Source: an uncultured bacterium
Lineage (GTDB): Bacteria; GCA-001730085
NCBI GenBank assembly: GCA_964565945.1
Contig: CAZMGY010000003.1
Span: 30,001 to 62,000 of the forward strand
Length of the DNA stretch: 32,000 nucleotides
Direction of reading: 5' to 3'
The notes under the pieces were generated by a model, which saw only the letters and a program-made list of their open reading frames with translations, was not told the origin of the DNA and made no database searches. A program made the position numbers and the translations under genes. The first letter of the stretch is position 1. Every line of letters begins with the position of its first letter. Positions 11,097 to 28,828 of this stretch are shown here, in pieces.

Positions 11097-11111
11097 GTGA
11101 GGTCTTGTTGT

Positions 11112-11185
11112 GGGCGATTAGCGCAGTTGGTTAGCGTGCTATCCCGACATGTTAGAGGTCACTGGTTCGAATCCAGTATCGCCCA
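11112..11185 (+). tRNA. tRNA-Val (anticodon GAC), no encoded CCA
   Basis: Hand-folded cloverleaf. Acceptor GGGCGAT/ATCGCCC (7 bp), D stem GCGC/GCGT, T arm ACTGG-TTCGAAT-CCAGT, variable loop AGGTC, discriminator A. Anticodon arm is CTATC-CCGACAT-GTTAG, with anticodon GAC at 34-36. Oddities are C at position 33 and a U-U mismatch at 30:40. Confidence 0.8.
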
Positions 11186-11227
11186 TAAAAATAAACATAT
11201 TTAATAGATTTAAAAAAGAAATGGTTT

Positions 11228-15158: not shown

Positions 15159-17384
15159 ATGAAAAAAATTACCCTTTCTAAAGAAATTATCGAAGGGCAT
15201 GGACTGAGTAAATTGGAATACGAGTTGATTTTGAAACTTTTGGGGCGTGAACCGAATATTACAGAGCTTGGTATTTTTTCGGTGATGTGGTCGGAACATT
15301 GCAGCTATAAAAACTCGAAACCGCTTTTAAAACTGTTCCCAACACAGCATGAGCGTATTTTGATTGGAGCTGGCGAAGAAAATGCTGGAGTGGTTGATAT
15401 TGGTGATGGCTGGGGCTTGGTGTTTAAGGTGGAATCGCACAATCATCCATCTGCGATTGAGCCATATCAAGGGGCTGCCACGGGTGTTGGGGGCATTATT
15501 CGCGATATTTTTACGATGGGTGCTCGTCCGATTGCCTGTATGGACTCTTTGCGTTTTGGTTCCCTGAGCGATGAGCGAGTGAAATTTTTATTGAAAGGTG
15601 TGGTCGAAGGGATTGCTGGATATGGCAATTGCATTGGGATTCCAACGGTTGGTGGCGAAATTATGTTTGACGAATCCTACCAAACCAATCCTTTGGTTAA
15701 TGTGTTTTGCTTGGGTGTGGTGAAGCATGAAGACATTGCCCGTGGTGTGGCTTCGGGTGAAGGCAATCGAGTGCTTTACGTAGGGCCTCCAACTGGACGT
15801 GATGGTATTCATGGGGCAACCTTTGCATCGGATGATTTGACTGAAAAATCCTCAGAAAAAAAATCCGCAGTGCAAGTGGGGGATCCCTTTATGGAAAAAC
15901 TTTTACTCGAGGCGTGTTTGGAAGTGATTCAAAAAGGCCTTGTGGTGGGGATTCAAGATATGGGAGCGGCGGGCTTAACCTGTTCGACCTGTGAAACGGC
16001 TAGTCGCGGGAACAGTGGTATTTCTATTGATGTGGCCAAGGTGCCTCAACGTGAAACGGGCATGACACCATATGAGATTATGCTTTCGGAATCCCAAGAA
16101 CGAATGTTATTGATTGTGGAACCTTCCAAAGTGAAGGATGTGCAAGCCGTGTTTGAGCGGTGGGATTTGTATGCTGAGGATATTGGGCAGGTCCAAACTG
16201 GAGATCGGATGAAAGTGTTTAACCATGGTGAATTGGTGGCCGATATGCCAGTGGACGCCTTGGCGGAAAAAGCACCTATGTATGTGCGCGAAGAGGAAGA
16301 GCCCGCTTATTTGAAAGATTTACCTCAAGTGGATGAGGCAAAAGTGGCTCAAAAGCAAGATTATGAAGCATCGATTAAACAATTGTTGGCTGTGCCTAAT
16401 ATTGCCAGCAAGGCTTGGGTCTATGAGCAATATGATCATATGGTAGGCACGAATACCGTGTCTTTGCCAGGCTCGGATGCGGCGGTGATTCGGGTTAAAG
16501 ATACCGATAAATTGGTGGCGATGAAACTCGATGGACAAGGTCGCTACTGTTATGTTGATCCCTATGAAGGTGGCAAAATAGCTGTGGCCGAAGCGGCCCG
16601 TAATGTGGTTTGTTCGGGGGCACGTCCGATTGCGGCGACCGACTGTTTGAATTTTGGAAATCCGATGCACCCCGAAGTATTTTGGGTGTTTCATCGTTGT
16701 GTGGAAGGTTTGGCTGAGGCTTGCCGAAAGTTGGATACTCCGATCATTGGGGGGAATGTGAGTCTTTATAATCAAAACCCCGATGGTGCGATTTTCCCGA
16801 CACCGATTGTTGGTGTTGTTGGTGTGATGAATGATGTTTCTCAGGTGCAACAACGTGTGAATACCCAGTGGTTCAAAAACGAAGGCGATGTGATTATGCT
16901 TTTGGGTGAAACCAAAAATGAAATCGGAGCGAGTGAGTTTTACAAAACTGTTTTAGGTGAAACCGTGGGGCCTTGTCCTAAAATCAATCTGCAAGTCGAA
17001 CATAATCTTTATGAAGCGGTGATTTCTGCGAGTGAGCAAGGTTTGTTGCAGTCGGCGCATGATTGCGCCGAAGGTGGTTTGGCGGTAGCCTTGGTCGAAT
17101 CATGTATATCTGGTCCCGAAGCCTTGGGTGCGACGATCTCTTTTGCCGAATCCTTTGAGCCCAATGTACTGCTGTTTGGCGAAAGTCAAAGTCGGATTAT
17201 TGTGTCTTGTCGTGCGAATGATGAAGCGACTCTGCATAACTTGTGCGAACAACACGGTGTTCCAGTTCAAAAACTAGGACAGGTTGGTGGCGCACAGCTA
17301 ACAATTAATGACTGGATCAGCTGTGCTGTGCAAGACTTGCAGACAATTTGGACCGAAAGTTTCGCATTATTATTGAATGCCTAG
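15159..17384 (+). CDS. purL: Phosphoribosylformylglycinamidine synthase subunit PurL (small PurL)
   Basis: 741 aa with duplicated PurM-like AIRS domains, MWSEHCSYK, and [32 protein letters not shown] lies upstream. Confidence 0.95.
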
Positions 17385-17408: not shown

Positions 17409-17714
17409 ATGAAGTATTTTGGTGGTATAAGTATAGCTTTGCTTGTGGTTAGTGTTGGATGTTCATCTCGAGCGATTTATCGGCCATTGATCAATATTAC
17501 TCCGTATCCACCGTCGCCAGAAAAAACCTTTGAGTTGCAGGTTAAAGAGGATGCTTCTCCTGTGAGTCCGATTGAGCCTTTTCGCTTGAGAACAATGTAT
17601 GGAGGCTACGATCACTCGTCTAATCTGATCAAGAGTACGTTTGGTTATGGCGTTCGTTTGAAAGGAAAACGTGATCATACAGGGATTGACTTTGTGGCAC
17701 CGATCGGTGTTTAG
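17409..17714 (+). pseudogene. Truncated M23-family peptidase lipoprotein (N-terminal 101 codons only)
   Basis: Lipoprotein-type signal (ISIALLVVSVGC). The ORF stops just inside the M23 HxxxD motif (KRDHTGIDFVAPIGV*). No continuation of the domain appears in any frame downstream. The 3' end overlaps the convergent gene by 4 nt. Confidence 0.65.
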
Positions 17715-18205
17715 GCTTTTTGGAGTTGGGTCCACTTTCTCAAGTGGTGTTGCATATAGGGCTGTTTCTTGGGATCGAAATAAGTGAGGACCAAATCACC
17801 CTGTTCAAGTCTTTCGAGGTATTTGGGCTCTGTCCCTAGGCGACTTTGTGTGACATAAGAAATCGAAATCTGAGTGCTATCTTTTTTGCTGCGCACCACA
17901 TTGAGAATGCCTGCTTGAGGAAAGGCATAGGTTGTATTGAGGGGAATGTTGTCAAAAATCATCACACTCATATTGTCTAAAGGTTTATCGGTGGCATAAT
18001 TTCGCATATATCCTTCGTTAGTGAACTCAAATAGTTGATAAGGGGCAAAAAGGATCAAATCTTTGGGCATATCGGGACGAATACCTTGAAAAACCATTTG
18101 CCAGCGCCCCTGGATATCTTCGGACTGAGCGGGACGAAAGCCTTCTTGAGCCCAAGCCGAACTGACCAAGAGACCGATCCAAAGTATAGAGCGCAAAAGC
18201 GACAT
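17711..18205 (-). CDS. Secreted hypothetical protein
   Basis: Signal peptide (MSLLRSILWIGLLVSSAWA/QE). GAGGG lies 9 nt upstream of ATG 18205. 164 aa with no recognisable motif. Confidence 0.6.
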   Translation of the reverse strand: MSLLRSILWIGLLVSSAWAQEGFRPAQSEDIQGRWQMVFQGIRPDMPKDLILFAPYQLFEFTNEGYMRNYATDKPLDNMSVMIFDNIPLNTTYAFPQAGILNVVRSKKDSTQISISYVTQSRLGTEPKYLERLEQGDLVLTYFDPKKQPYMQHHLRKWTQLQKA

Positions 18206-18318: not shown

Positions 18319-18564
18319 ATGGTGCTGGAGTATTTGATTCAGCAATTGCAACAATCGGATTAGAAAGTGACTCCTTGGCGCAAAGCCTTGCTGGCTCTTT
18401 TTAAGAGCCAGTCGAAAGCTTTAAGTGTCGGAGGGGTCTACCAGCATTTTAAGTAAAAATTTGATCCTGTTGGCTTGCCAAGTGTCTATCGTAATTTGGA
18501 TGCTTTGTGTGATTTAGGTCTGTTATATGTCATGTGTTCCAATGACGGTCGCCATAAAGTGTAA
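18319..18564 (+). pseudogene. Fur-family (Fur/Zur/PerR-like) regulator remnant: DNA-binding domain only, two in-frame stops
   Basis: Single-frame translation: MVLEYLIQQLQQSD*KVTPWRKALLALFKSQSKALSVGGVYQHFK*KFDPVGLPSVYRNLDALCDLGLLYVMCSNDGRHKV*. It matches the Fur winged-helix pattern (T-x-x-R..L..., S.aTVYRxL..L...GL). In-frame TAG is at 18361-18363 and TAA at 18454-18456. The metal-binding/dimerisation half is absent. Confidence 0.7.
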
Positions 18565-21500
18565 TGTTGAAGGCCTCTGTGGGGATTGCAACGATGAATC
18601 GATATCTATTTAAAAAAATTAAGTGTCTTACGGCACTCATTCTTGTTCAGCTATTGGTGTGGCAGTCGGTGTCGTATGCGCTTAGTCCAGGCTCACATGT
18701 GGTGGATATGTATGCTGAGTTTCAGCATAAAGTGCAGCATGGAGTGCCATGGGCATTGATGAATCAGTCGGCGAAGGAGCATGCGCATGCTCCCGCAAAG
18801 CCCGAACAAAAACCTGTTCCTAAACACGAGCATAAACATGATCATAAGCATGAGTACAAAAAAGTTGAGACCCTTAAATTATTTTATTCCATTCCCAGTG
18901 AATGTTTTGCTTTGGGTTTAGTTATTCTGGTGCTGGCAGTGGTCTTTACTGGAGGATCTTATTGGTTTTTAATGCTTGGTCTGCCTTTACTGATACAGGT
19001 GATATATGACATGGAAGTTACCTTAGAGCTTTATTGGAATAAGAGTGCTCTCAAAAAAGTCTATGATTTTATGCAAAATAGTGCTGGGGTTGTGATTATT
19101 GCGATTGTGCTGTTTGGTTTGATGGAGATATTAGGCCACTTGGTGATGGTTGGTGCTGCGGCGACACCTCTTTTTTGGACCTTCACGGTAATTTCTCTGA
19201 TTGGAGTGATTGTTTATGCTCTTCCTGAGATGAACAATGGATGGAAGGCTGTTTTTAAAGCCATAGATTTTGGTCGTCAAGGCAAGAACCCCATGAGAGC
19301 CTTGGGTATGAGCTTTGTTCGGGGGTTTTCGCTATTTTTATTTATACTTTTACCTCTTTTGGGGATTGTTCATTTAAACCTTGCCTTAGTGGTGTTAATT
19401 GCAGCGTCTGTCCAATTTGCTTATATTTTGAAACGTCAAGCTCGCGAATACCAAATGGAAGCCATGGGGCAGTTGAAAAATCGAGAAATTCCCCGAAATA
19501 TTGTGGTGGTGGCGCTGAATGGAGCAAAACTCCAGCAAAAAGTGATCCTGACCGAAGAAGAGGTTCAGGATATGTTAAATCAAGGGATCGAGGTGACGGC
19601 TTATGTGGCTCAAAATACGTGGGTGCCTCGCATGGATGGTTTGATTGAAGCTGTAATCAATCAAAAGCAGGCCTATGTTGATGAGTCGGAGCTTAATGGG
19701 GAAGAGCAGCTTAAGCTAGTTAAGACCAGTGATCAAATCAAGGGAGGGACTTTTTTGACAGGAGCGCCTATTCATGTGCGCATTTTGCAGGTTGGCGAGC
19801 AAAGCGAAATTGGTCATATTGAATGCTCTCTCAAACGATTTAGCAGCAAAGGTGTGTCGCGAATAGAACGATTTTCTGATAAGGTTGGGCAGTATTTTAT
19901 CTACACCGTGTTCTTTTTTGCTATCGTTGGTTTTTTGGTGAGTTATTTGACTGTTGGCTCCATAACGACAGCATTAATTGGGGCTCTGACCGTCTTTGTA
20001 ATCATATGTCCTTGTGCCTTTTTGATTGGGCAACCTTTAGCCTTTAGTGCTGCGCGCCAGAACTTGGCGGCGACGCATAAGATTAGCGTCAATGACGATC
20101 GTTCGTTTTTAGTGCCGCGTGTGATGGTGTTCGATAAAAGCAATACGATCACCGATGGGGTTGAAATTGATCGTGAGAAGCCTTGGGTGTCATTAGGTGC
20201 CGATATGGATGATGAAAAAGAGAAAGAGCGTATTTTGAAATGGGCCGCGATGGCTGAGTACCCTTATGCACAAAATCAGTATGCTCAAGAGGTGATTGAG
20301 TTGGCAATTCACCATGGTGCCACAGACCGTTTAAAGTTGGAAAATCATAAGAATTCTGTGAAAAGTCAGATTTATGAGAGTGGCAAAGGTCTTAAAGCGA
20401 TCATCAAGGAACCTCATTATGGACATGCTCATGATCAGGAGGTTTACTTGGGGAACTTAGAAACGCTTTTGACAATGGTGACCACAATTCCCGAAGAGCA
20501 ACAGCAAGCTTTGCGCAGACAAGTGGATGAAGTTGTTAATGCTGATTCGGACCAGGTTGTTACACCGATTGTGATGTACGATATTACTCATGAGAAGCCT
20601 TTGCTCGTTTTTCGGATTATTAATCGAATTCGTCCCAAGGTGAAAGAATTTTTGGAGGATTACCGCAACATAGCGAAGCGCAATCCTTATTACACTTTTT
20701 TAAATGGAGTGTCACGTTTATTGTTCCGAACAGATTCTTTTCCTTCACAAACTTTGGCAGTGGTGGCATCGGGTGACCGCAAAGAAGCAGTTCGAAAAAT
20801 TGTTAAAAAAATAGATATCAAGTTAGCTTTGGCCGAAGTGAGCCCTTCGGAAAAAGCTTTGTTTGTGTTACTGCTTAAACATGGTGGATGGCTTGGAAAG
20901 TTCCAAAAAGATTTGGAAAAACGAAAGGATCCCCTGATTTTAACCTATCAAGAATTTCGCACCTATCTTATGGACAAAAGGTATGCCACGAAGAAAGAGG
21001 TTAATGACCTTGAGCAAATTTATCTTAAAGAGCATCAAGGGCCCGAAGATCATGCTTTAAAAACCAATGTGGTTTTCTTTATGGGCGATGGTAGCAACGA
21101 CCGTCAGGCCATGCAAGTGGCTCATGCGGGAATTTCGTTCAATGGAGCACGTTCGGTTGGGCAGGGAGATATTCTTTTGGGAGCCGACAAAAAAGAGCAA
21201 CCGCTTTTTTCACAGGTTAGTTATATTATAAAAACTTTTCGGCGCACCTATGGCATCATTCTAACCAATATTTTCTTGATAGCCTTTGTTTGGAATATTG
21301 TGATACTCACTTTGATTTTTGCAGGAGTGTTAGGACCAGGGTGGGCGGCTCTAATGCATGCTTTGAATACGCTATTTGTTGTGATTTTGGCAATGAAACT
21401 AATGGCGAAACCCAAAGAATTTTTTAAACAAGAGTTTAAAAATATGTTTAAAGGTAAGGTATCTCATGTCGATAAGGAGCCGAAACACAAATCTCAAAAA

Positions 21501-22391
21501 AAGGCTGTTCAGAACCCTAAAAGCAATGTGGCGCAATTGATGACTAAAGAAGGGGTTCGCCCGCAGGCGCTATTTCAGGACGATTGCTGTAGGTCTAGGT
21601 TTCGTGGTCGTGCCCAAGGGGGGCGTGGCGGGCATCATCATGATGATGCTGAAGTCGACCATTGTTGTTCGTCACCAGTTGTCTATCGGCCTCAGTATTA
21701 TCGAGTTCCAGGCCTTTATGAAAGTAGGCCAGTTTTAACAGTTGCACAGTTACTAGGTGGTCAAGTTACTGCATGGCAGCAGTGGGCGGGTGCAATAGCG
21801 GATATGAGACAACTGTTAACCACAATGCAGCAACGCAGAAATAGCAAGCAAGCGAATATTACTTATATGATGGGGCCTCTTTTTGATGACTATGTTCTTG
21901 ATGAAGGTGTCTTTATGGATTGGGTGATGACTCATGCCAATAAGATTCAGTTGATACCCAGTGCCACAGTGGGGGCGATGCACTGGAAAGATGCGCAAGG
22001 CATTTATCGCATTCATATCGATCCTCGGTTGCTTAAAGATAGCGGTATGCAAGGCGTTTTAGCGAGTGAGTTATTGCATGAGCTTTTGGAGATTTATTTT
22101 GTGACGCATGCGCGTGCTCAGGAGCCAATTTGGCATGAGGCCTATACGATAGAGAACCTGGATAAGGCCTCCTTTGAAGCGTCGATATTTGCGTTGCAAA
22201 TTCAACTGCTTCAAGCGTGGGGAATGGATATGAATCGTATTCGTAATGGGTATATTTCTGTGGAGCAACAGTTTTTTGATGGCCGAGCATTTTTTAGTAC
22301 TGGTTTTGATGAGATTAATTCGTCTGTCGCTTCTTCTCGGCCACTTCAAGAGGTGGTTCAAAGTCAGTTTCAAGTGCTTTTTGTCGCATAA
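18564..22391 (+). CDS. Atypical P1B-type (heavy-metal) P-type ATPase fusion protein, 1275 aa
   Basis: A-domain block VPRMDGL..YVDESELNGEEQLKLVK..GGTFL. CPC in a TM helix (VIICPCAFLIGQP, nt 20007-20015). Phosphorylation-site block VFDKSNTITDG (20133-20147). SGDRKEAV, AEVSPSEK and GDGSNDRQAM (21084-21101), then two C-terminal TMs. Additional parts: N-terminal hydrophobic segment, His-rich tract (HAHAPAKPEQKPVPKHEHKHDHKHEYKK), extra TMs, and a ~325-aa C-terminal extension. Confidence 0.85.
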   Translation: MLKASVGIATMNRYLFKKIKCLTALILVQLLVWQSVSYALSPGSHVVDMYAEFQHKVQHGVPWALMNQSAKEHAHAPAKPEQKPVPKHEHKHDHKHEYKKVETLKLFYSIPSECFALGLVILVLAVVFTGGSYWFLMLGLPLLIQVIYDMEVTLELYWNKSALKKVYDFMQNSAGVVIIAIVLFGLMEILGHLVMVGAAATPLFWTFTVISLIGVIVYALPEMNNGWKAVFKAIDFGRQGKNPMRALGMSFVRGFSLFLFILLPLLGIVHLNLALVVLIAASVQFAYILKRQAREYQMEAMGQLKNREIPRNIVVVALNGAKLQQKVILTEEEVQDMLNQGIEVTAYVAQNTWVPRMDGLIEAVINQKQAYVDESELNGEEQLKLVKTSDQIKGGTFLTGAPIHVRILQVGEQSEIGHIECSLKRFSSKGVSRIERFSDKVGQYFIYTVFFFAIVGFLVSYLTVGSITTALIGALTVFVIICPCAFLIGQPLAFSAARQNLAATHKISVNDDRSFLVPRVMVFDKSNTITDGVEIDREKPWVSLGADMDDEKEKERILKWAAMAEYPYAQNQYAQEVIELAIHHGATDRLKLENHKNSVKSQIYESGKGLKAIIKEPHYGHAHDQEVYLGNLETLLTMVTTIPEEQQQALRRQVDEVVNADSDQVVTPIVMYDITHEKPLLVFRIINRIRPKVKEFLEDYRNIAKRNPYYTFLNGVSRLLFRTDSFPSQTLAVVASGDRKEAVRKIVKKIDIKLALAEVSPSEKALFVLLLKHGGWLGKFQKDLEKRKDPLILTYQEFRTYLMDKRYATKKEVNDLEQIYLKEHQGPEDHALKTNVVFFMGDGSNDRQAMQVAHAGISFNGARSVGQGDILLGADKKEQPLFSQVSYIIKTFRRTYGIILTNIFLIAFVWNIVILTLIFAGVLGPGWAALMHALNTLFVVILAMKLMAKPKEFFKQEFKNMFKGKVSHVDKEPKHKSQKKAVQNPKSNVAQLMTKEGVRPQALFQDDCCRSRFRGRAQGGRGGHHHDDAEVDHCCSSPVVYRPQYYRVPGLYESRPVLTVAQLLGGQVTAWQQWAGAIADMRQLLTTMQQRRNSKQANITYMMGPLFDDYVLDEGVFMDWVMTHANKIQLIPSATVGAMHWKDAQGIYRIHIDPRLLKDSGMQGVLASELLHELLEIYFVTHARAQEPIWHEAYTIENLDKASFEASIFALQIQLLQAWGMDMNRIRNGYISVEQQFFDGRAFFSTGFDEINSSVASSRPLQEVVQSQFQVLFVA

Positions 22392-22540
22392 ACCGTTTTT
22401 TAGGGCTAGTCCGACTCAAAGAGCCATCGCGACCTTTCCTTTGGAAAGATATACATTTACCTATTAAAACCACCCTTTGTCAAAAAATATCTTTAGGTAA
22501 ATGTTTTAGAACATTAGGCATAGCGTAAAATTGTCTCTTT

Positions 22541-22569
22541 TAAAAAAGGCTAGTATCTCTCTACTAGCC
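22541..22569 (-). terminator. Orphan rho-independent-type terminator oriented on the minus strand
   Basis: GGCTAGTA (22548-22555), loop TCTCTC, TACTAGCC (22562-22569). The A6 run at 22542-22547 becomes a U-run only on the minus-strand transcript. Confidence 0.45.
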
Positions 22570-22834
22570 CTATATGAAAAACTCCACTCAAGAATACTTT
22601 TAATCCGAGGTTATATAATCAATTTCCATTTCTTTGCATCCGCAATCATGGAAATAGCTAAAAACCTTTTTGTAGAGGTAGACGTGTATCGGGCATTATA
22701 TAGTGTTAACTGTTAGGATAAATGAACGCTTGCAACTATTACAGTAATAACGAAAGCTATTGCAATACGCACAGGCTTTTTTCCTCTAAATAATCGATAC
22801 ACTGATTTTTTTGACTTGGGAACAATTTAGATAC

Positions 22835-22843
22835 TGTTATAAT
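22835..22843 (+). promoter_or_regulatory. Extended -10 promoter upstream of purM
   Basis: TGtTATAAT (TATAAT 22838-22843), about 85 nt upstream of purM ATG 22926. TTGACT at 22811-22816 is too far away (21 nt) to serve as the -35. Confidence 0.4.
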
Positions 22844-22925
22844 GGCTCTTGCGCAACCGCCATAATTGATTACAAATATATTAATGACATAATGGGGTTT
22901 TCCAAAGAGAGGGATTGTTTTTGAC

Positions 22926-23936
22926 ATGGAAGCACAAGATGCCTATAAAGAAGCCGGTGTTGATATTGAGGCTGGCAATCAATTTGTTGGTAAAATTAAA
23001 CAGTCAGTTAAGAGCACCTATCGTCCAGAAGTGTTAGGGGATTTGGGAGGTTTTGGAGGTTTGTTTCAGTTAGATGTGTCTCAATATACACAGCCTATTT
23101 TGGTGAGTGGAACCGATGGGGTTGGAACCAAGATTCGCGTGGCTCAGATGGCGGGCAAGCATGATACGGTGGGTATCGATTTGGTGGCGATGTGCGTGAA
23201 TGACATTATTGTTCAAGGGGCGGAGCCGTTGTTCTTTTTGGACTATGTTGGTGTGGGTCAATTGAATCCAGATGCGATGGCTCAGGTGGTGGAGGGGATT
23301 GCTGAGGGCTGTCGTCAGGCGAGGTGTGCTTTGATTGGTGGAGAAACGGCCGAAATGCCAGGTATGTACCGTGGCGAAGATTATGATTTGGCAGGTTTTT
23401 CTGTTGGAATCGTTAATAAAGACCAAATGATCACGGGCGAAACGATTCAAGATGGTGATGCTTTATTGGGCTTGCCTTCGTCGGGTATTCATAGCAATGG
23501 TTATTCTTTGGTGCGCAAAATAATATTTGAACAAGAAGGCCTATCTTGTGACGATGTTCTTTTTGATGATTTAACGGTGGGGCAAGTGCTTCTTGAGCCT
23601 ACACGGATTTATGTGAAGGCTTTACTAAGCTTAATGAAGAAGGTCGATGTAAAAGGTTTGGTGCACATCACTGGCGGTGGTTTCACCGAAAATATTCCGC
23701 GTGTTTTGCCCGAGGGCTTGCATTTTCAATTAGACGAAGAGGCTTGGCCGAGCTTGCTTATTTTCGAGTACTTGCAAGACAAAGGTCAGTTGAGCCAAGA
23801 TGAAATGCGCCGGACCTTCAATTGTGGTGTGGGCATGGTTATTGTGCTTGCGAAAGAACAGGCCGATTTAGCACAACAGATTTTGAAGGAGCAGTGTGAG
23901 GCTTCATACCGGCTCGGTCGCGTAATTAAGAGGTAA
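22926..23936 (+). CDS. purM: Phosphoribosylformylglycinamidine cyclo-ligase (AIR synthetase)
   Basis: AYKEAGVDIEAGN, SGTDGVGTK, and full-length PurM architecture. Confidence 0.95.
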   Translation: MEAQDAYKEAGVDIEAGNQFVGKIKQSVKSTYRPEVLGDLGGFGGLFQLDVSQYTQPILVSGTDGVGTKIRVAQMAGKHDTVGIDLVAMCVNDIIVQGAEPLFFLDYVGVGQLNPDAMAQVVEGIAEGCRQARCALIGGETAEMPGMYRGEDYDLAGFSVGIVNKDQMITGETIQDGDALLGLPSSGIHSNGYSLVRKIIFEQEGLSCDDVLFDDLTVGQVLLEPTRIYVKALLSLMKKVDVKGLVHITGGGFTENIPRVLPEGLHFQLDEEAWPSLLIFEYLQDKGQLSQDEMRRTFNCGVGMVIVLAKEQADLAQQILKEQCEASYRLGRVIKR

Positions 23937-23939
23937 TCG

Positions 23940-24482
23940 ATGCATTGGTTGGGCATATTGGTTTCGGGTCGTGGTTCGAATATGGATACAATTATCGCAG
24001 CGTGTGAAGAGGGTCGTCTTTTGGCGGAAGTGAAGGTTGTGATTAGTAACAAGGCCGATGCTCCTGCTTTGGATAAGGCGTGCAAAAAAAACATCGAAAC
24101 ATTTTGCCTTCAAGATGAAGATGCTATCGTCTCCTGTTTGCAAGACCATCGAGTCGACTTGGTTTGTTTGGCTGGTTTTATGAAGATCATTAAGCAGCCG
24201 CTTTTGCAAACTTATCCGAATAGGGTTGTGAATATTCATCCTTCGTTGTTGCCCAAATTCCCTGGCTTAAACACCCATCAAAGAGTGTTAGATGCGGGAG
24301 AGTCCGAAAGTGGTTGCACCGTCCACTATGTGGATAAAGGTATCGACACTGGACCGATCATTGCTCAGGCGGTGGTCCCCGTTGCTACGAAAGACACCTT
24401 CGAAACTCTAGCCGTGCGGGTGCTTAAAGAAGAGCATCGCATTTACCCCGAAGCCATCCAAAAGGTTTTGGAATCAATCTGA
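23940..24482 (+). CDS. purN: Phosphoribosylglycinamide formyltransferase
   Basis: ILVSGRGSNM, NIHPSLLPKFPG, GCTVHYVD. It lies 3 nt after purM. Confidence 0.93.
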   Translation: MHWLGILVSGRGSNMDTIIAACEEGRLLAEVKVVISNKADAPALDKACKKNIETFCLQDEDAIVSCLQDHRVDLVCLAGFMKIIKQPLLQTYPNRVVNIHPSLLPKFPGLNTHQRVLDAGESESGCTVHYVDKGIDTGPIIAQAVVPVATKDTFETLAVRVLKEEHRIYPEAIQKVLESI

Positions 24483-27598: not shown

Positions 27599-28828
27599 GC
27601 TTTCTAACGGCCTTAATGTTCACAAACTCGCGGAATCCCAAAGTGCAACAGTTCGAAGGCAAAGCTGGACTCTTTGATTCCTCCAAAGGGAAGGCGTGGG
27701 TCGGACTTGACAAAGCTATTCACAAAACAAGCTCCAGCATCCAGTTGTTCACGGGAAAAATTAAGCCCTTTTGGCTAGGTCTTTGGTGAATATCGCCGAA
27801 CCTAGGCCAAAGGAGCTTTGCTTAGCGAGTTGAATTGCTTCGGCCTCATCCTTGGCTTTGATTAAAGCGCCCACTGGGCCAAACAGTTCCTCGTTGAAAG
27901 CCACCATGTCCAGTTTGACGTCTCCCAGCAATGTGGCGGGGTATAAGGCTCCAGGATGTTCGGGTAAAGTTCCTCCACAGAGTAAGGTTGCACCTTGCTC
28001 CAAATAACGGGTGACTTGGTCGTGCAGTTTATCGCGTAGAATCGACACGAGCCATGGGGGCAATCGTGGTGGGGATCCAGAAGTTCTCCCAAACCTTGTG
28101 ATTTAAAGAGCTGTGTCATCTTTTCGGCAAATGCGTCATAAAGCGATTCTTCGATAATAAATCATTTGGCTACAATACAACGTTAGTCTCCATTGATCAG
28201 GCGAGAGGCTGTGCAGGTTTGTGCCGCAAGTTCAATATCTGCATCAATCAAAACGACATAGGGGTCGCTGCCTCCTAATTCGAGAACCGACTTTTTAAAA
28301 ACGGCACTGGTTTCGAGGACCACGTTTTTTATCACCAGTGCTGAACCGACCATATTGGAAAGATGTTTGAGCAGGTCAGTGTTACCCGCTATTAGGGCTG
28401 GAGCAAGAAAACGGAATACTTGCCACAAAGGGCAATTCCAGGGCATGACCGCCAAAATGGTACCTAAAGGTTGGTAGCTAATAAAACTGGTGGTGTTGGC
28501 AATATCGACGGGTTCATCGGCCAAAAACTGAGTGGCATGTGTGGCGTAATATTCATAGACCATGGCGCACTTTTCGACTTCACCCTTGGCGTGTGACAAA
28601 GGTTTTTCCATTTCGGCCGTGATGAGTTCTCCATAAACTTGGGTGTTATCTTTGAGGAGTTAGGCCATTTGATTTATCAGTTTGGAGCGATTTTCGAACG
28701 AAGTGGTTTTCTAGCTGGCAAACACCTTGTGAACTTCTTGCATGATTGTATGGATACCGTCTGTCGAATGAGTCTCCTAGATGGCAAGGGTTTTTGAGTG
28801 TGTAGGGCTTAAGGGCTGTCATAGGCAT
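27599..28828 (-). pseudogene. Decayed NAD(P)-dependent aldehyde dehydrogenase (succinate-semialdehyde dehydrogenase-like)
   Basis: ALDH motifs are spread over at least 5 ORF fragments in three frames. These include PLGTILAVMPWNCPLWQ, LELGGSDP, NGD*RCIVAK*FIIEE (catalytic Cys context), EELFGPV, SFGLGSAIFT, PFGGIKES and EFVNIKAV. In-frame stops are at 28711-28713 (TAG at the conserved Trp), 28660-28662 (TAA), 28183-28185 (TAA at the GQ position) and 28162-28164 (TGA at the KR position). There are frameshifts near 28065, 27762 and 27640, and a ~35-aa internal deletion between the NVV and KKSVLELGG blocks. The left boundary is approximate. Confidence 0.85.

What the first reader, a model, noticed from the sequence alone, without database searches (positions are those of the whole stretch)
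18564..22391. Giant P1B-type ATPase with an unusual multi-part architecture
The core (about aa 290-950) aligns block by block with heavy-metal P1B ATPases: the A-domain VDES..GE block, CPC in the TM helix before the P-domain, the DK..T phosphorylation block, SGD, SPSEK, GDGSND, and two C-terminal TMs. Canonical P1B pumps are about 650-800 aa. This ORF is 1275 aa. It lacks the usual ferredoxin-fold CxxC metal-binding domain. Instead it has a hydrophobic N-terminal segment, a His/Lys-rich tract, apparently two to three extra TM helices before the usual MA/MB pair, a ~65-aa insertion in the P-domain, and a ~325-aa C-terminal cytoplasmic extension. I do not recognise this combination as a described subfamily.
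Basis: partly seen in the sequence, partly recalled or inferred. Interest (0 to 1): 0.7.

Follow-up and report, generated by a model that had tools for sequence, protein, structure and literature searches.

The report
New oversized P1B-like metal pump family
This gene encodes a very large, very divergent relative of bacterial heavy-metal export pumps; it keeps the ATP-driven pump machinery but has a rebuilt metal site, two extra membrane helices, two inserts and long tails, and it belongs to a small undescribed family found so far only in an uncultured PVC-group lineage known from a marine bryozoan metagenome.

Summary
The ORF (18564-22391, +, 1275 aa; the real start is probably Met11, giving 1265 aa) is real. 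The identical protein is encoded in at least 12 contigs from independent sequencing runs, always between purL and purM, so it is neither a chimera nor a frameshift fusion.

It is a P-type ATPase of the P1B lineage:
- D524, K525, T528, G379-E380, S736-G-D738, K764 and GDGxND are all kept.
- An AlphaFold model of residues 1-960 has pLDDT 81, and its best PDB matches are CopA and ZntA.

It misses every curated P1B subfamily cut-off and lacks several P1B hallmarks:
- There is no HMA domain and no SEHP motif.
- The phosphorylation motif reads DKSNT and the actuator motif reads NGE.
- The M5/M6 ligands are WN and HxxNT, where P1B-1 has YN and MxxSS.

An exhaustive search of 1.84 billion representative proteins found only four relatives (26-37% identity). 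Two of the four are annotated, both as 'hypothetical protein' of 'PVC group bacterium (ex Bugula neritina AB1)'. All four share an N-terminal signal-peptide-like helix with a conserved motif, an extra TM hairpin, and 25-aa and 59-aa P-domain inserts. The 190-aa C-terminal domain is shared only with one paralogue clade.

Most likely function: a divalent transition-metal pump with His/Cys-rich regulatory tails. The substrate and the N-terminal topology are unresolved.

The parts
18564..22391 (+). Whole ORF, 1275 aa including the stop codon. The probable real start is Met11 at 18594 (1265 aa).
18594..18683 (+). N-terminal signal-peptide-like segment (aa 11-40). It has a positively charged n-region (R13, K17, K18, K20), a 13-16 aa hydrophobic core, and small residues at -3/-1 (S-Y-A).
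   Evidence: Present in all 5 family members. The AF2 helix 14-39 has low pLDDT.
18675..18704 (+). Family-specific conserved motif [YFW][AG]L[AS]PxSxV (aa 38-47, YALSPGSHVV), directly after the hydrophobic core.
   Evidence: Columns L40, P42 and S44 are invariant. In about 150 kb of related loci the motif occurs only in these ATPases.
18774..18863 (+). Disordered His/Lys-rich tract (aa 71-100, 7 His: KEHAHAPAKPEQKPVPKHEHKHDHKHEYKK). It is a candidate metal-binding regulatory tract.
   Evidence: pLDDT <50. The orthologue P0055 has a Cys/His-rich tract here (HKEC/HKGC repeats).
18870..19043 (+). Extra TM hairpin a-b (aa 103-160) with the invariant P141. It is absent from generic P1B pumps.
   Evidence: Insertion relative to 66 generic P1B sequences; family occupancy 0.87. 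AF2 helices 112-129 and 133-160. Hydropathy in all 5 members.
19083..19478 (+). MA, MB/MB' platform, M1 and M2 (aa 174-305).
   Evidence: AF2 helices 174-194, 200-238, 249-265, 273-305. The CopA equivalog alignment begins at aa 174.
19479..19859 (+). Actuator (A) domain (aa 306-432), with N378-G379-E380 in place of TGE.
   Evidence: Pfam E1-E2_ATPase 83.4 bits. G379 and E380 are invariant in 73 sequences.
19860..20078 (+). M3 and M4 (aa 433-505), with C482-P483-C484. C484 is invariant in the family.
20079..21203 (+). P- and N-domains (aa 506-880). Motifs: D524-K-S-N-T528 (phosphorylation site), E565, N571-Q572 in place of the P1B 'HP', G607-x-G609, S736-G-D738, K764, G841-D-G-S-N-D846.
20676..20750 (+). 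P-domain insertion 1 (aa 705-729, ...YYTFLNGVSRLLFRTDSFP...). It is conserved in all family members.
   Evidence: family occupancy 0.99. N714, S717, F721 and P727 are invariant.
20889..21065 (+). P-domain insertion 2 (aa 776-834, 59 aa, charged and helical), between K764 and GDGSND.
   Evidence: family occupancy 0.93. AF2 helices 777-786, 795-804 and 810-823 have high pLDDT.
21204..21407 (+). M5 and M6 (aa 881-948), with the invariant W910-N911 and H932-x-x-N935(-T936) at the positions of the P1B-1 YN and MxxSS ligands.
21408..21581 (+). Juxtamembrane amphipathic helix and Lys-rich linker (aa 949-1006).
21582..21671 (+). C-terminal Cys/His cluster (aa 1007-1036: DCCRSRFRGRAQGGRGGHHHDDAEVDHCCS). 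It is a candidate C-terminal metal-binding site.
   Evidence: The P0056 paralogue has HKHKNPHASCKLC at the equivalent place.
21831..22388 (+). C-terminal alpha/beta domain of unknown fold (aa about 1090-1275). It contains H1172-E-x-x-E1176-x5-H1182.
   Evidence: Homologous only to the C-terminus of the P0056 clade (BLASTP E=3e-5). No Pfam, PDB or Foldseek match. The AF2 model is poor. The coding frame is supported.

Best explanation
The gene encodes a functional, ATP-driven P-type pump descended from the P1B (heavy-metal) lineage. It is the founding member of a small, fast-evolving subgroup confined to an uncultured PVC-group lineage. It most likely works by the ordinary Post-Albers cycle. In that cycle D524 is phosphorylated from ATP, the N378-G-E380 loop of the A-domain dephosphorylates it, and an ion bound in the membrane between M4 (C482, C484), M5 (N911) and M6 (H932, N935) moves from cytoplasm to periplasm. 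At the two M6 ligand positions Met and Ser have become His and Asn. In the paralogues the CPC proline has also moved. The preferred substrate is therefore inferred to be a borderline or harder divalent transition metal (Zn2+, Fe2+, Mn2+, Co2+ or Ni2+ class) rather than the Cu(I) of its nearest sequence relatives. The His-rich N-terminal tract and the C-terminal Cys/His cluster are inferred to be cytoplasmic metal-sensing or autoregulatory elements. The extra a-b hairpin, the two P-domain inserts and the C-terminal domain are inferred to be lineage-specific regulatory or assembly modules. What is shown: family membership, retained catalytic residues, architecture, rarity and synteny. What is inferred: transport direction, substrate class, and the role of the tails.
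For: Catalytic residues: in an alignment with 6 family members and 66 generic P1B pumps the window protein keeps every universally invariant residue, namely G379, E380, P491, D524, K525, T528, T530, E565, G737, D738, K764, G841, D842, G843, N845, D846 and N911. These stay invariant among five family clades that are only 24-39% identical to one another, which argues for purifying selection on catalysis. Profile scores: Pfam E1-E2_ATPase scores 83 bits against a cut-off of 28. TIGR01494 (P-type ATPase) scores 74.7 against 62.3. Fold: the AF2 model of aa 1-960 has pLDDT 80.8 and pTM 0.79. Its top Foldseek hits are LpCopA, ZntA, AfCopA, ATP7B and sCoaT, with E 1e-30 to 1e-25. Ligand positions: C484, W910, N911, H932 and N935 are invariant in the family, whereas 194 of 207 nearest generic hits have CPC/YN/MxxS[SD] there. 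Metal-binding tails: the His-rich (window) or Cys/His-rich (P0055) N-tract and the C-terminal CC..HHH..HCC (window) or H-x-H..CxxC (P0056) are typical of metal-pump regulatory tails. Context of a paralogue: it sits 30 bp downstream of an imelysin (Peptidase_M75) and di-haem oxidoreductase pair, next to an Fbp-like ABC importer, which is a metal/iron neighbourhood. Topology: positive-inside charge counts fit a cytoplasmic location for the tract before helix a. Precedent: the P1B-6-like pump CtpC uses an N...H-N-x-S/T ligand set for Zn/Mn-class metals, and its partner PacL1 has one TM, a disordered linker and a His-rich motif (PMC13460109).
Against: The catalytic motifs deviate from consensus: DKSNT for DKTGT and NGE for TGE. 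The N-domain SEHP histidine, important for ATP binding in ATP7B (my own knowledge), is replaced by N571-Q572 in this protein and by N or S in the whole family. Pfam HAD (PF00702) scores below its threshold. All P1B subfamily models score far below their cut-offs. The gene has diverged much faster than its neighbours: 34% identity against 51-75%. That could mean relaxed constraint or a changed function. There is no metal sensor or chaperone gene beside it, and it sits inside a purine-biosynthesis cluster. The N-terminal segment looks like a cleavable Sec signal peptide. That would place the His-rich tract in the periplasm and clashes with the six TM helices before the A-domain. There is no experimental data at all.
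Confidence: 0.6

Rival explanations
1. It is the same pump scaffold with a different topology or direction. The N-terminal segment is a genuine cleaved signal peptide or an N-in signal anchor, so the His-rich tract is periplasmic. There it would capture metal for import, or receive exported metal for hand-off to periplasmic metalloproteins. One of the predicted helices a or b would then not span the membrane.
For: All five members have a classic n-h-c signal-peptide layout with small -3/-1 residues, a short (13-16 aa) hydrophobic core and a positively charged N-tip. A conserved L[AS]PxSxV motif follows at the would-be mature N-terminus. The invariant P141 could kink helix b. The paralogue's operon partners, imelysin and a di-haem protein, are families I know as periplasmic (for the Pfam families; the location is my own knowledge).
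Against: AF2 and hydropathy give two full-length helices a and b in every member. That makes six TMs before the cytoplasmic A-domain, an even number that forces the preceding tract to be cytoplasmic. Charge counts put the pre-a segment (+5) and the b-MA loop (+3) inside. The Cys-rich HKEC repeats of P0055 are more plausible in a reducing cytoplasm. Single-TM proteins with a cytoplasmic His-rich tail do exist beside P1B pumps (PacL1).
Confidence: 0.15
2. It is a neofunctionalised or decaying P1B derivative that no longer pumps transition metals. It could transport a non-metal substrate, or act as an ATP-dependent sensor or scaffold whose tails are the functional part.
For: It is only 34% identical to its syntenic orthologue, while its neighbours are 51-75% identical. 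The CPC proline position is not conserved among paralogues (CPC, CAC-P, SSC-P). The SEHP motif is lost and the DKTGT glycine is replaced. There are large inserts and variable C-terminal tails. It has a housekeeping genomic context. The host genome shows gene decay nearby (Aldedh fragments).
Against: All residues needed for phosphorylation and dephosphorylation, and four polar or thiol residues at the canonical ion site, are invariant across three paralogue clades. The ORF is intact and almost invariant in at least 12 assemblies, with 0-2 amino-acid differences. His/Cys clusters point to metals.
Confidence: 0.15
3. It is an artefact: an assembly chimera, or two genes (a pump and a downstream gene) joined by a sequencing frameshift.
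For: The length is unusual, and the C-terminal 327 aa have no database match.
Against: The identical protein is encoded on 12 contigs from at least 5 different SRA runs, in identical context. The codon-position GC signature of the C-terminal part matches the rest of the gene, and the other two frames do not. An independent paralogue (P0056 clade) has a homologous C-terminal domain fused to its own pump core.
Confidence: 0.01

Closest known systems
P1B-1 Cu(I) pumps (Archaeoglobus fulgidus CopA, PDB 3j08/3j09/7r0g; Legionella pneumophila CopA, 3rfu/4bbj)
   Same: They are the best sequence matches among solved structures (82 bits for the single sequence, 141 bits for the family profile) and the best fold matches. 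They share the MA/MB + M1-M6 core, the A/P/N domains, CPC in M4 and an Asn in M5. 194 of 207 nearest database hits are of this type.
   Different: This protein has no HMA domain. It has WN for YN, HxxNT for MxxSS, no SEHP, DKSNT and NGE. It adds two extra TM helices, a signal-peptide-like N-terminus, two P-domain inserts and a 327-aa C-terminal extension. It scores 101 bits against a cut-off of 397 for TIGR01511.
P1B-6-like pumps (Mycobacterium tuberculosis CtpC) with the PacL1 partner
   Same: The M5/M6 ligand set is Asn...His/Asn/Ser-Thr rather than Met/Ser. CtpC also has CPC and lacks CxxC domains (PMC13460109). PacL1 has a single TM helix, a disordered linker and a His-rich motif (DLHDHDH), which mirrors the organisation of the window protein's N-terminal module (hydrophobic helix, disordered tract, KHEHKHDHKHE).
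   Different: The spacing differs: N-X20-H-x-x-N-T here against the P1B-6 hallmark N-X18-H-N-x-(S/T). TM4 is not SCA. The N-terminal region gives no DUF1490 hit. Here the module is fused to the pump in cis rather than being a separate protein. I did not have reference P1B-6 sequences for a tree.
P1B-2 Zn/Cd pumps (Shigella ZntA, 4umv) and the plant pump HMA4 (8q73/8q75; labelled copper-transporting in the PDB entries)
   Same: CPC in M4. Cys/His-rich cytoplasmic tails act as regulatory metal-binding regions in this group (my own knowledge). ZntA is the second-best fold match.
   Different: The M5 Lys and M6 DxG ligands of P1B-2 are absent (see the single P1B-2-type hit P0168). TIGR01512 scores 89.7 against a cut-off of 313.5.
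Hypothetical proteins OED34832.1 and OED35388.1 of 'PVC group bacterium (ex Bugula neritina AB1)' (bin AB1_div; Miller et al. 2016, PMC5041132)
   Same: They are true family members. OED34832.1 (P0055) is the syntenic orthologue between purL and purM. They share the N-terminal motif, the a-b hairpin, both inserts and the WN/HxxN site.
   Different: They are 34% and 27% identical. They lack the C-terminal domain. P0055 carries its Cys/His-rich tract at the N-terminus. Both are uncharacterised and annotated only as hypothetical.

Membership tests
P-type ATPase superfamily (HAD-IC) | Phosphorylated Asp in a DKTGT-type motif | tested here: met
   D524-K525-S-N-T528. D, K and the last T are invariant in 73 aligned sequences. 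The middle T-G is S-N here.
P-type ATPase superfamily (HAD-IC) | A-domain TGE loop, P-domain TGD and GDGxND motifs | tested here: met
   N378-G-E380, S736-G-D738 and G841-D-G-S-N-D846. GE, GD and GDGxND are invariant.
P-type ATPase superfamily (HAD-IC) | Curated profile scores above cut-off | tested here: met
   Pfam E1-E2_ATPase scores 83.4 against 28.1. TIGR01494 scores 74.7 against 62.3. Pfam Hydrolase PF00702 scores only 16.3 against 26.4.
P1B (heavy-metal) ATPases | MA/MB + M1-M6 fold, closest to the structures of P1B pumps | tested here: met
   AF2 pLDDT is 80.8. The Foldseek top 14 hits are all P1B pumps.
P1B (heavy-metal) ATPases | 6-8 TM helices in total (PMC13460109, Fig. 1 legend) | tested here: not met
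   10 TM helices plus an N-terminal hydrophobic helix.
P1B (heavy-metal) ATPases | Cys-containing tripeptide around the M4 proline (CPC, SPC, CPH, PCP, SCA, CSC) | tested here: met
   C482-P-C484 in the window protein and P0055. The paralogues have CAC-P or SSC-P, and only C484 is invariant.
P1B (heavy-metal) ATPases | N-domain SEHP(L) motif | tested here: not met
   The H-P columns are occupied by N571-Q572, and by N or S in all five members.
P1B (heavy-metal) ATPases | NCBIfam TIGR01525 subfamily cut-off | tested here: not met
   154 bits against a cut-off of 346.
P1B-1 (Cu+/Ag+) | CPC (M4), YN (M5), MxxSS (M6) | tested here: not met
   The window protein has CPC / WN / HxxNT. TIGR01511 scores 101 against 397.
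P1B-2 (Zn2+/Cd2+/Pb2+) | CPC (M4), Lys in M5, DxG in M6 (my own knowledge; illustrated by P0168) | tested here: not met
   There is no M5 Lys and no M6 DxG. TIGR01512 scores 89.7 against 313.5.
P1B-4, P1B-5, P1B-7 | SPC, PCP and CSC in TM4 respectively (PMC13460109) | tested here: not met
   TM4 is CPC.
P1B-6 | SCA in TM4 and N-X18-H-N-X-(S/T) across TM5-TM6 (PMC13460109) | tested here: not met
   CPC, and N911-X20-H932-A-L-N935-T936. The ligand types are similar but the register differs. No phylogeny with reference P1B-6 sequences was possible.
PacL / DUF1490 (for the N-terminal module) | Pfam DUF1490 match | tested here: not met
   No Pfam family at E<=5 for aa 1-290. The resemblance is in organisation only.
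Sec signal peptide (N-terminus) | n-h-c regions, the -3/-1 rule, and experimental cleavage | tested here: inconclusive
   The sequence features are present in all 5 members. Cleavage is incompatible with the six TMs before the A-domain. No signal-peptide or topology predictor was available.

The most novel reading that the evidence does not exclude
This is a genuinely new P1B-derived class, in effect a 'P1B-8'. It would have an 11-helix or odd-parity topology, with a conserved cleavable signal peptide or N-out helix placing a His-rich capture tract outside the cell. It would work as a metal importer or as a dedicated metallation pump for periplasmic iron/haem proteins. A zincin-like C-terminal domain (H1172-E-x-x-E-x5-H1182) would act as a metal-sensing autoinhibitor. 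The three paralogues would have been expanded as an adaptation of an uncultured PVC lineage to life in marine invertebrates.
Probability: 0.2. Interest if true: 0.75.

Novelty: new variant of a known kind. Interest (0 to 1): 0.55.

Why it matters
P1B pumps are classified, and their substrates predicted, from a handful of TM4-TM6 signatures and from 6-8 TM topologies. This family breaks both rules (C[PA]C / WN / HxxN, and 10-11 helices) while keeping the catalytic engine. It would therefore extend the known sequence space of metal selectivity. It also offers a natural case of a PacL-like 'TM + His-rich tail' module fused to the pump itself. In addition, it is a lineage marker with three paralogues for a poorly known PVC-group clade related to the AB1_div bin from a marine bryozoan. 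Metal handling in that clade may be part of the association with animal hosts. There is no phenotype or biochemistry yet, so the value today is as a well-defined target for expression, topology mapping and structure work.

Tried and rejected
(1) The word-indexed homologue search with the single protein and with the family profile returned only the query's own cluster plus generic P1B pumps. It missed the four true relatives that the exhaustive HMMER search found.

(2) The genome-contig scan with the family alignment used generic patterns (GDGxND, WN...LI[FY]).

(3) The C-terminal domain gave nothing usable. It has no Pfam, NCBIfam or PDB sequence hit. The word-indexed search with the two-clade alignment found nothing, not even the query itself, so that null is uninformative. 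The AF2 model has pLDDT 44. The best Foldseek hit has E = 0.35; the sub-threshold hits to SprT/SPRTN, a putative Zn peptidase and snapalysin are kept only as a lead.

(4) dN/dS within the 90% cluster is impossible, because the variants differ by only 0-2 residues.

(5) The reference paper defining P1B-5/6/7 (Smith et al. 2014, PMC4119550) is not held. The motif definitions were taken from PMC13460109 instead. A literature search on FUPA families gave nothing relevant.

(6) A chimera or frameshift was rejected.

(7) HELLE as a catalytic HExxH-type site was rejected as a conserved feature, because P0056 has RNVLE there.

(8) I considered whether the conserved N-terminal motif is a general sorting signal of the lineage. 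It was not seen in any other ORF in about 150 kb of available loci, but that sample is small.

Full report
OBSERVATION. The window holds an uninterrupted ORF at 18564-22391 on the + strand (1275 aa). It lies between a purL-like gene (15159-17384) and purM/purN-like genes (22926-24482). Public gene calls start at Met11 (1265 aa, P0001). That start is the more likely one, because a GGGGA sits 8 nt upstream of it and the N-termini of the relatives align there. The identical protein is encoded on 12 contigs read from the collection, assembled from different SRA runs. The context is always RNR - thrS - infC - rpmI - rplT - purQ - purL - two small ORFs - this gene - purM - purN - mfd. Variants within its 90% cluster differ by 0-2 residues. 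The GC1>GC3>GC2 codon signature is the same in the C-terminal 327 codons as in the rest of the gene and its neighbours, and it is lost in the other two frames. The ORF is therefore real, and it is neither a chimera nor a frameshift fusion.

WHAT THE CORE IS. Pfam finds only E1-E2_ATPase (aa 362-502, 83 bits). The HAD model is sub-threshold (16 bits against 26). NCBIfam puts it above the generic P-type cut-off (TIGR01494, 74.7 against 62.3). It falls far below every heavy-metal subfamily cut-off: TIGR01525 154 against 346, TIGR01511 101 against 397, TIGR01512 90 against 314. The best solved relatives by sequence are A. fulgidus CopA (82 bits), L. pneumophila CopA, HMA4, ZntA and the P1B-4 pump 7qbz. 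With the family profile the order is CopA (141 bits), then HMA4, LpCopA, 7qbz, ATP7B, ZntA and KdpB.

An AlphaFold2 model of residues 1-960 was built on an alignment of 73 sequences. It is confident (mean pLDDT 80.8, pTM 0.79), and only residues 1-101 are disordered. Its top 14 Foldseek matches in the PDB are all P1B pumps (4bbj, 4umv, 7r0g, 7si7, 3rfu, 7qbz, 8q73 and others; E 4e-30 to 3e-23). In the 73-sequence alignment the window protein keeps every universally invariant residue: G379, E380, P491, D524, K525, T528, T530, E565, G737, D738, K764, G841, D842, G843, N845, D846 and N911.

HOW IT DEVIATES.
- The phosphorylation motif reads DKSNT, not DKTGT.
- The actuator loop reads NGE, not TGE.
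- The N-domain 'SEHP' histidine-proline pair is replaced by N571-Q572.
- No HMA domain is present.
- Measured against 66 generic P1B sequences there are three family-specific insertions: aa 103-147 (a TM hairpin), aa 705-729 and aa 776-834 (both in the P-domain).
- The model shows helices a (112-129) and b (133-160) in front of MA (174-194), MB/MB' (200-238), M1 (249-265) and M2 (273-305). That makes six TM helices before the A-domain and ten in all, plus an N-terminal hydrophobic helix. Reviews give 6-8 TM helices for all P1B pumps (PMC13460109).
- At the ion-site columns, 194 of the 207 nearest database hits read CPC / YN / MxxS[SD], the P1B-1 Cu(I) signature. This protein reads CPC / WN / HxxNT.

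THE FAMILY. The word-indexed search found nothing closer than 74 bits apart from the query itself. The exhaustive HMMER search of 1.84 billion representatives found 10,351 P-type hits, but only five at E<=1e-30: the query and P0055 (1080 aa, 527 bits), P0056 (1197 aa), P0057 (1073 aa) and P0058 (936 aa). The next hit scores 97 bits. A neighbour-joining tree of 212 sequences puts the five in an exclusive clade. Its stem is 0.093 long against a median internal branch of 0.011. The topology is ((window, P0055), ((P0056, P0057), P0058)).

P0055 and P0057 are GenBank OED34832.1 and OED35388.1, both 'hypothetical protein' of 'PVC group bacterium (ex Bugula neritina AB1)'. P0058 comes from the same sample. 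That bin, AB1_div, is a 1.91-Mb, 34.7% GC genome of a deep PVC lineage. It is 90% identical in 16S to 'candidate division NPL-UPA2' and came from a bryozoan metagenome (PMC5041132). P0055 occupies the same purL-purM slot as the window gene, so the two are orthologues. P0056-type genes come from the same run series as the window gene. They are probably a paralogue in the same or a sister organism. So three paralogue clades predate the split of the two organisms.

The window protein is 34% identical to its orthologue, while the flanking housekeeping proteins are 51-75% identical. It is a fast-evolving protein.

All five share these features:
- the signal-peptide-like N-terminus followed by [YFW][AG]L[AS]PxSxV;
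- the a-b hairpin with the invariant P141;
- both P-domain inserts, with N714, S717, F721 and P727 invariant;
- D-K-x-x-T, x-G-E, S-G-D, K764 and GDGxND;
- C484, W910-N911 and H932-x-x-N935.

CPC itself is not conserved. The P0056/P0057 clade has CAC-P and P0058 has SSC-P.

TAILS. Residues 71-100 are a disordered His/Lys tract with 7 His. P0055 has a longer Cys/His tract with HKEC/HKGC repeats at that position, and the other three have acidic or Ser-rich linkers. After M6 come four elements: an amphipathic helix, a Lys-rich linker, a Cys/His cluster (C1008, C1009, H1024-1026, H1033, C1034, C1035), and a domain of about 190 aa. That domain is significantly similar only to the C-terminus of the P0056 clade (BLASTP E=3e-5, 21% identity over 147 aa). 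P0056 precedes its copy with HKHKNPHASCKLC. The domain has no Pfam, NCBIfam or PDB sequence match. Its AF2 model is poor (pLDDT 44) and Foldseek gives nothing significant. The window copy has H1172-E-x-x-E1176-x5-H1182, which has the spacing of the metzincin HExxHxxGxxH motif, and the weak top Foldseek hits are small zincins. P0056 has RNVLE at this site, so this is only a lead.

MECHANISM (best explanation, confidence 0.6). It is a working Post-Albers pump. D524 is phosphorylated and N378-G-E380 dephosphorylates it. The ion site is formed by C482/C484, N911, H932 and N935. Replacing the soft Met/Ser ligands with His/Asn in every member points away from Cu(I), and so does the movable proline. 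Both changes point towards a divalent transition metal (Zn/Fe/Mn/Co/Ni class). This is an inference, supported by analogy with the N...H-N-x-S/T site of P1B-6-like CtpC (PMC13460109). The His/Cys tracts are inferred to be cytoplasmic metal sensors, as in other P1B pumps. The paralogue's position also fits a role in metal supply or detoxification: it lies 30 bp downstream of an imelysin and di-haem pair and beside an Fbp-like importer. That context belongs to the paralogue, not to the window gene. The window gene's own neighbourhood is housekeeping.

UNRESOLVED: TOPOLOGY PARITY. The N-terminus looks like a cleavable Sec signal peptide in all five members: a positive n-region, a 13-16-residue h-region, and small residues at -3/-1. 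That would put residues 41-103 in the periplasm. But six TM helices precede the cytoplasmic A-domain. The charge distribution is +5 before helix a, 0 in the a-b turn, +3 in the b-MA loop, 0 in the MA-MB loop and +6 in the MB-M1 loop. Both observations put that tract in the cytoplasm. Either the N-terminal helix is an N-out TM0, or helix a or b does not span the membrane and the tract is periplasmic. In the first case the arrangement is 'one TM + disordered linker + His-rich motif'. PacL1, the partner of CtpC, has the same organisation, although no DUF1490 homology is detectable here. The second case is rival 1 (confidence 0.15). No topology predictor or model coordinates were available to settle this.

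OTHER RIVALS. Neofunctionalisation or loss of metal transport (0.15) is suggested by the fast divergence and the degenerate motifs. It is opposed by strict conservation of all catalytic and ion-site residues across three paralogue clades. An artefact (0.01) is excluded.

COMPARISON AND NOVELTY. It works like a P1B pump and descends from that lineage, nearest to P1B-1 in sequence. It fails the tested defining features of each subgroup P1B-1, -2, -4, -5, -6 and -7. It also fails general P1B hallmarks: SEHP, 6-8 TM helices and the subfamily profile cut-offs. I could not run a full reference phylogeny, and the paper that defines P1B-5/6/7 was not available. I rate it a new variant of a known kind. 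It is a small, lineage-restricted, architecturally distinct P1B-derived subgroup with no characterised member.

VERDICT. Interest is 0.55. A specialist in metal pumps would find the ion-site signature, the 10-11-helix topology, the conserved signal-peptide-like N-terminus and the fused tails unusual and testable. Still, the basic kind (a P-type metal pump) is familiar, and there is no functional evidence yet.

Noticed in passing
window 17409-17714 (+): A 101-aa ORF with a lipoprotein-type signal (VVSVGC|SS). It ends in '...GKRDHTGIDFVAPIGV', which resembles the start of a Peptidase_M23 HxGxD motif, and then stops. It may be a truncated M23 gene. Pfam gives no support (only DUF4833 at E=0.088).
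   Followed up: partly
window 17711-18205 (-): A 164-aa orphan protein with a signal-peptide-like N-terminus, transcribed divergently from the pump gene. It has no Pfam hit. It is seen on 34 contigs and is absent from the syntenic AB1_div locus L086.
   Followed up: partly
window about 27719-28021 and 28141-28569 (-) (= L001 19126-19428 and 19548-19976): Two adjacent Aldedh (PF00171) fragments of 100 and 142 aa. They look like a broken aldehyde dehydrogenase gene, which suggests ongoing gene decay in this genome.
   Followed up: no
L091 970-7125 (paralogue locus, run SRR19987526): The P0056-type paralogue lies 30 bp downstream of a Peptidase_M75 (imelysin) and DHOR di-haem oxidoreductase pair. 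It is preceded by a HAD hydrolase and followed a few genes later by an Fbp-like ABC importer. In AB1_div the orthologous P0057 also has a HAD hydrolase immediately upstream.
   Followed up: partly
window 22077-22109 (aa 1172-1182 of the pump): H-E-L-L-E-I-Y-F-V-T-H has the spacing of the metzincin HExxHxxGxxH motif, with the second His replaced by Glu. Sub-threshold Foldseek hits of the poor C-terminal model include SprT/SPRTN, a putative Zn peptidase and snapalysin. The motif is not conserved in P0056.
   Followed up: partly
window 22392-22925: A 534-bp, comparatively AT-rich intergenic region lies between the pump gene and purM; the 22001-23000 bin is 38% GC against about 44% elsewhere. It contains three sigma-70-like promoter matches on the + strand in front of purM. 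In AB1_div the equivalent spacer is only 250 bp.
   Followed up: no
window 18391-18412: A short inverted repeat (GGCTCTT-TTT-AAGAGCC) in the 358-bp divergent promoter region upstream of the pump gene, read from the sequence. Its function is unknown.
   Followed up: no
window 11111-11186 (+): A tRNA-Val (GAC) lies just upstream of thrS.
   Followed up: yes
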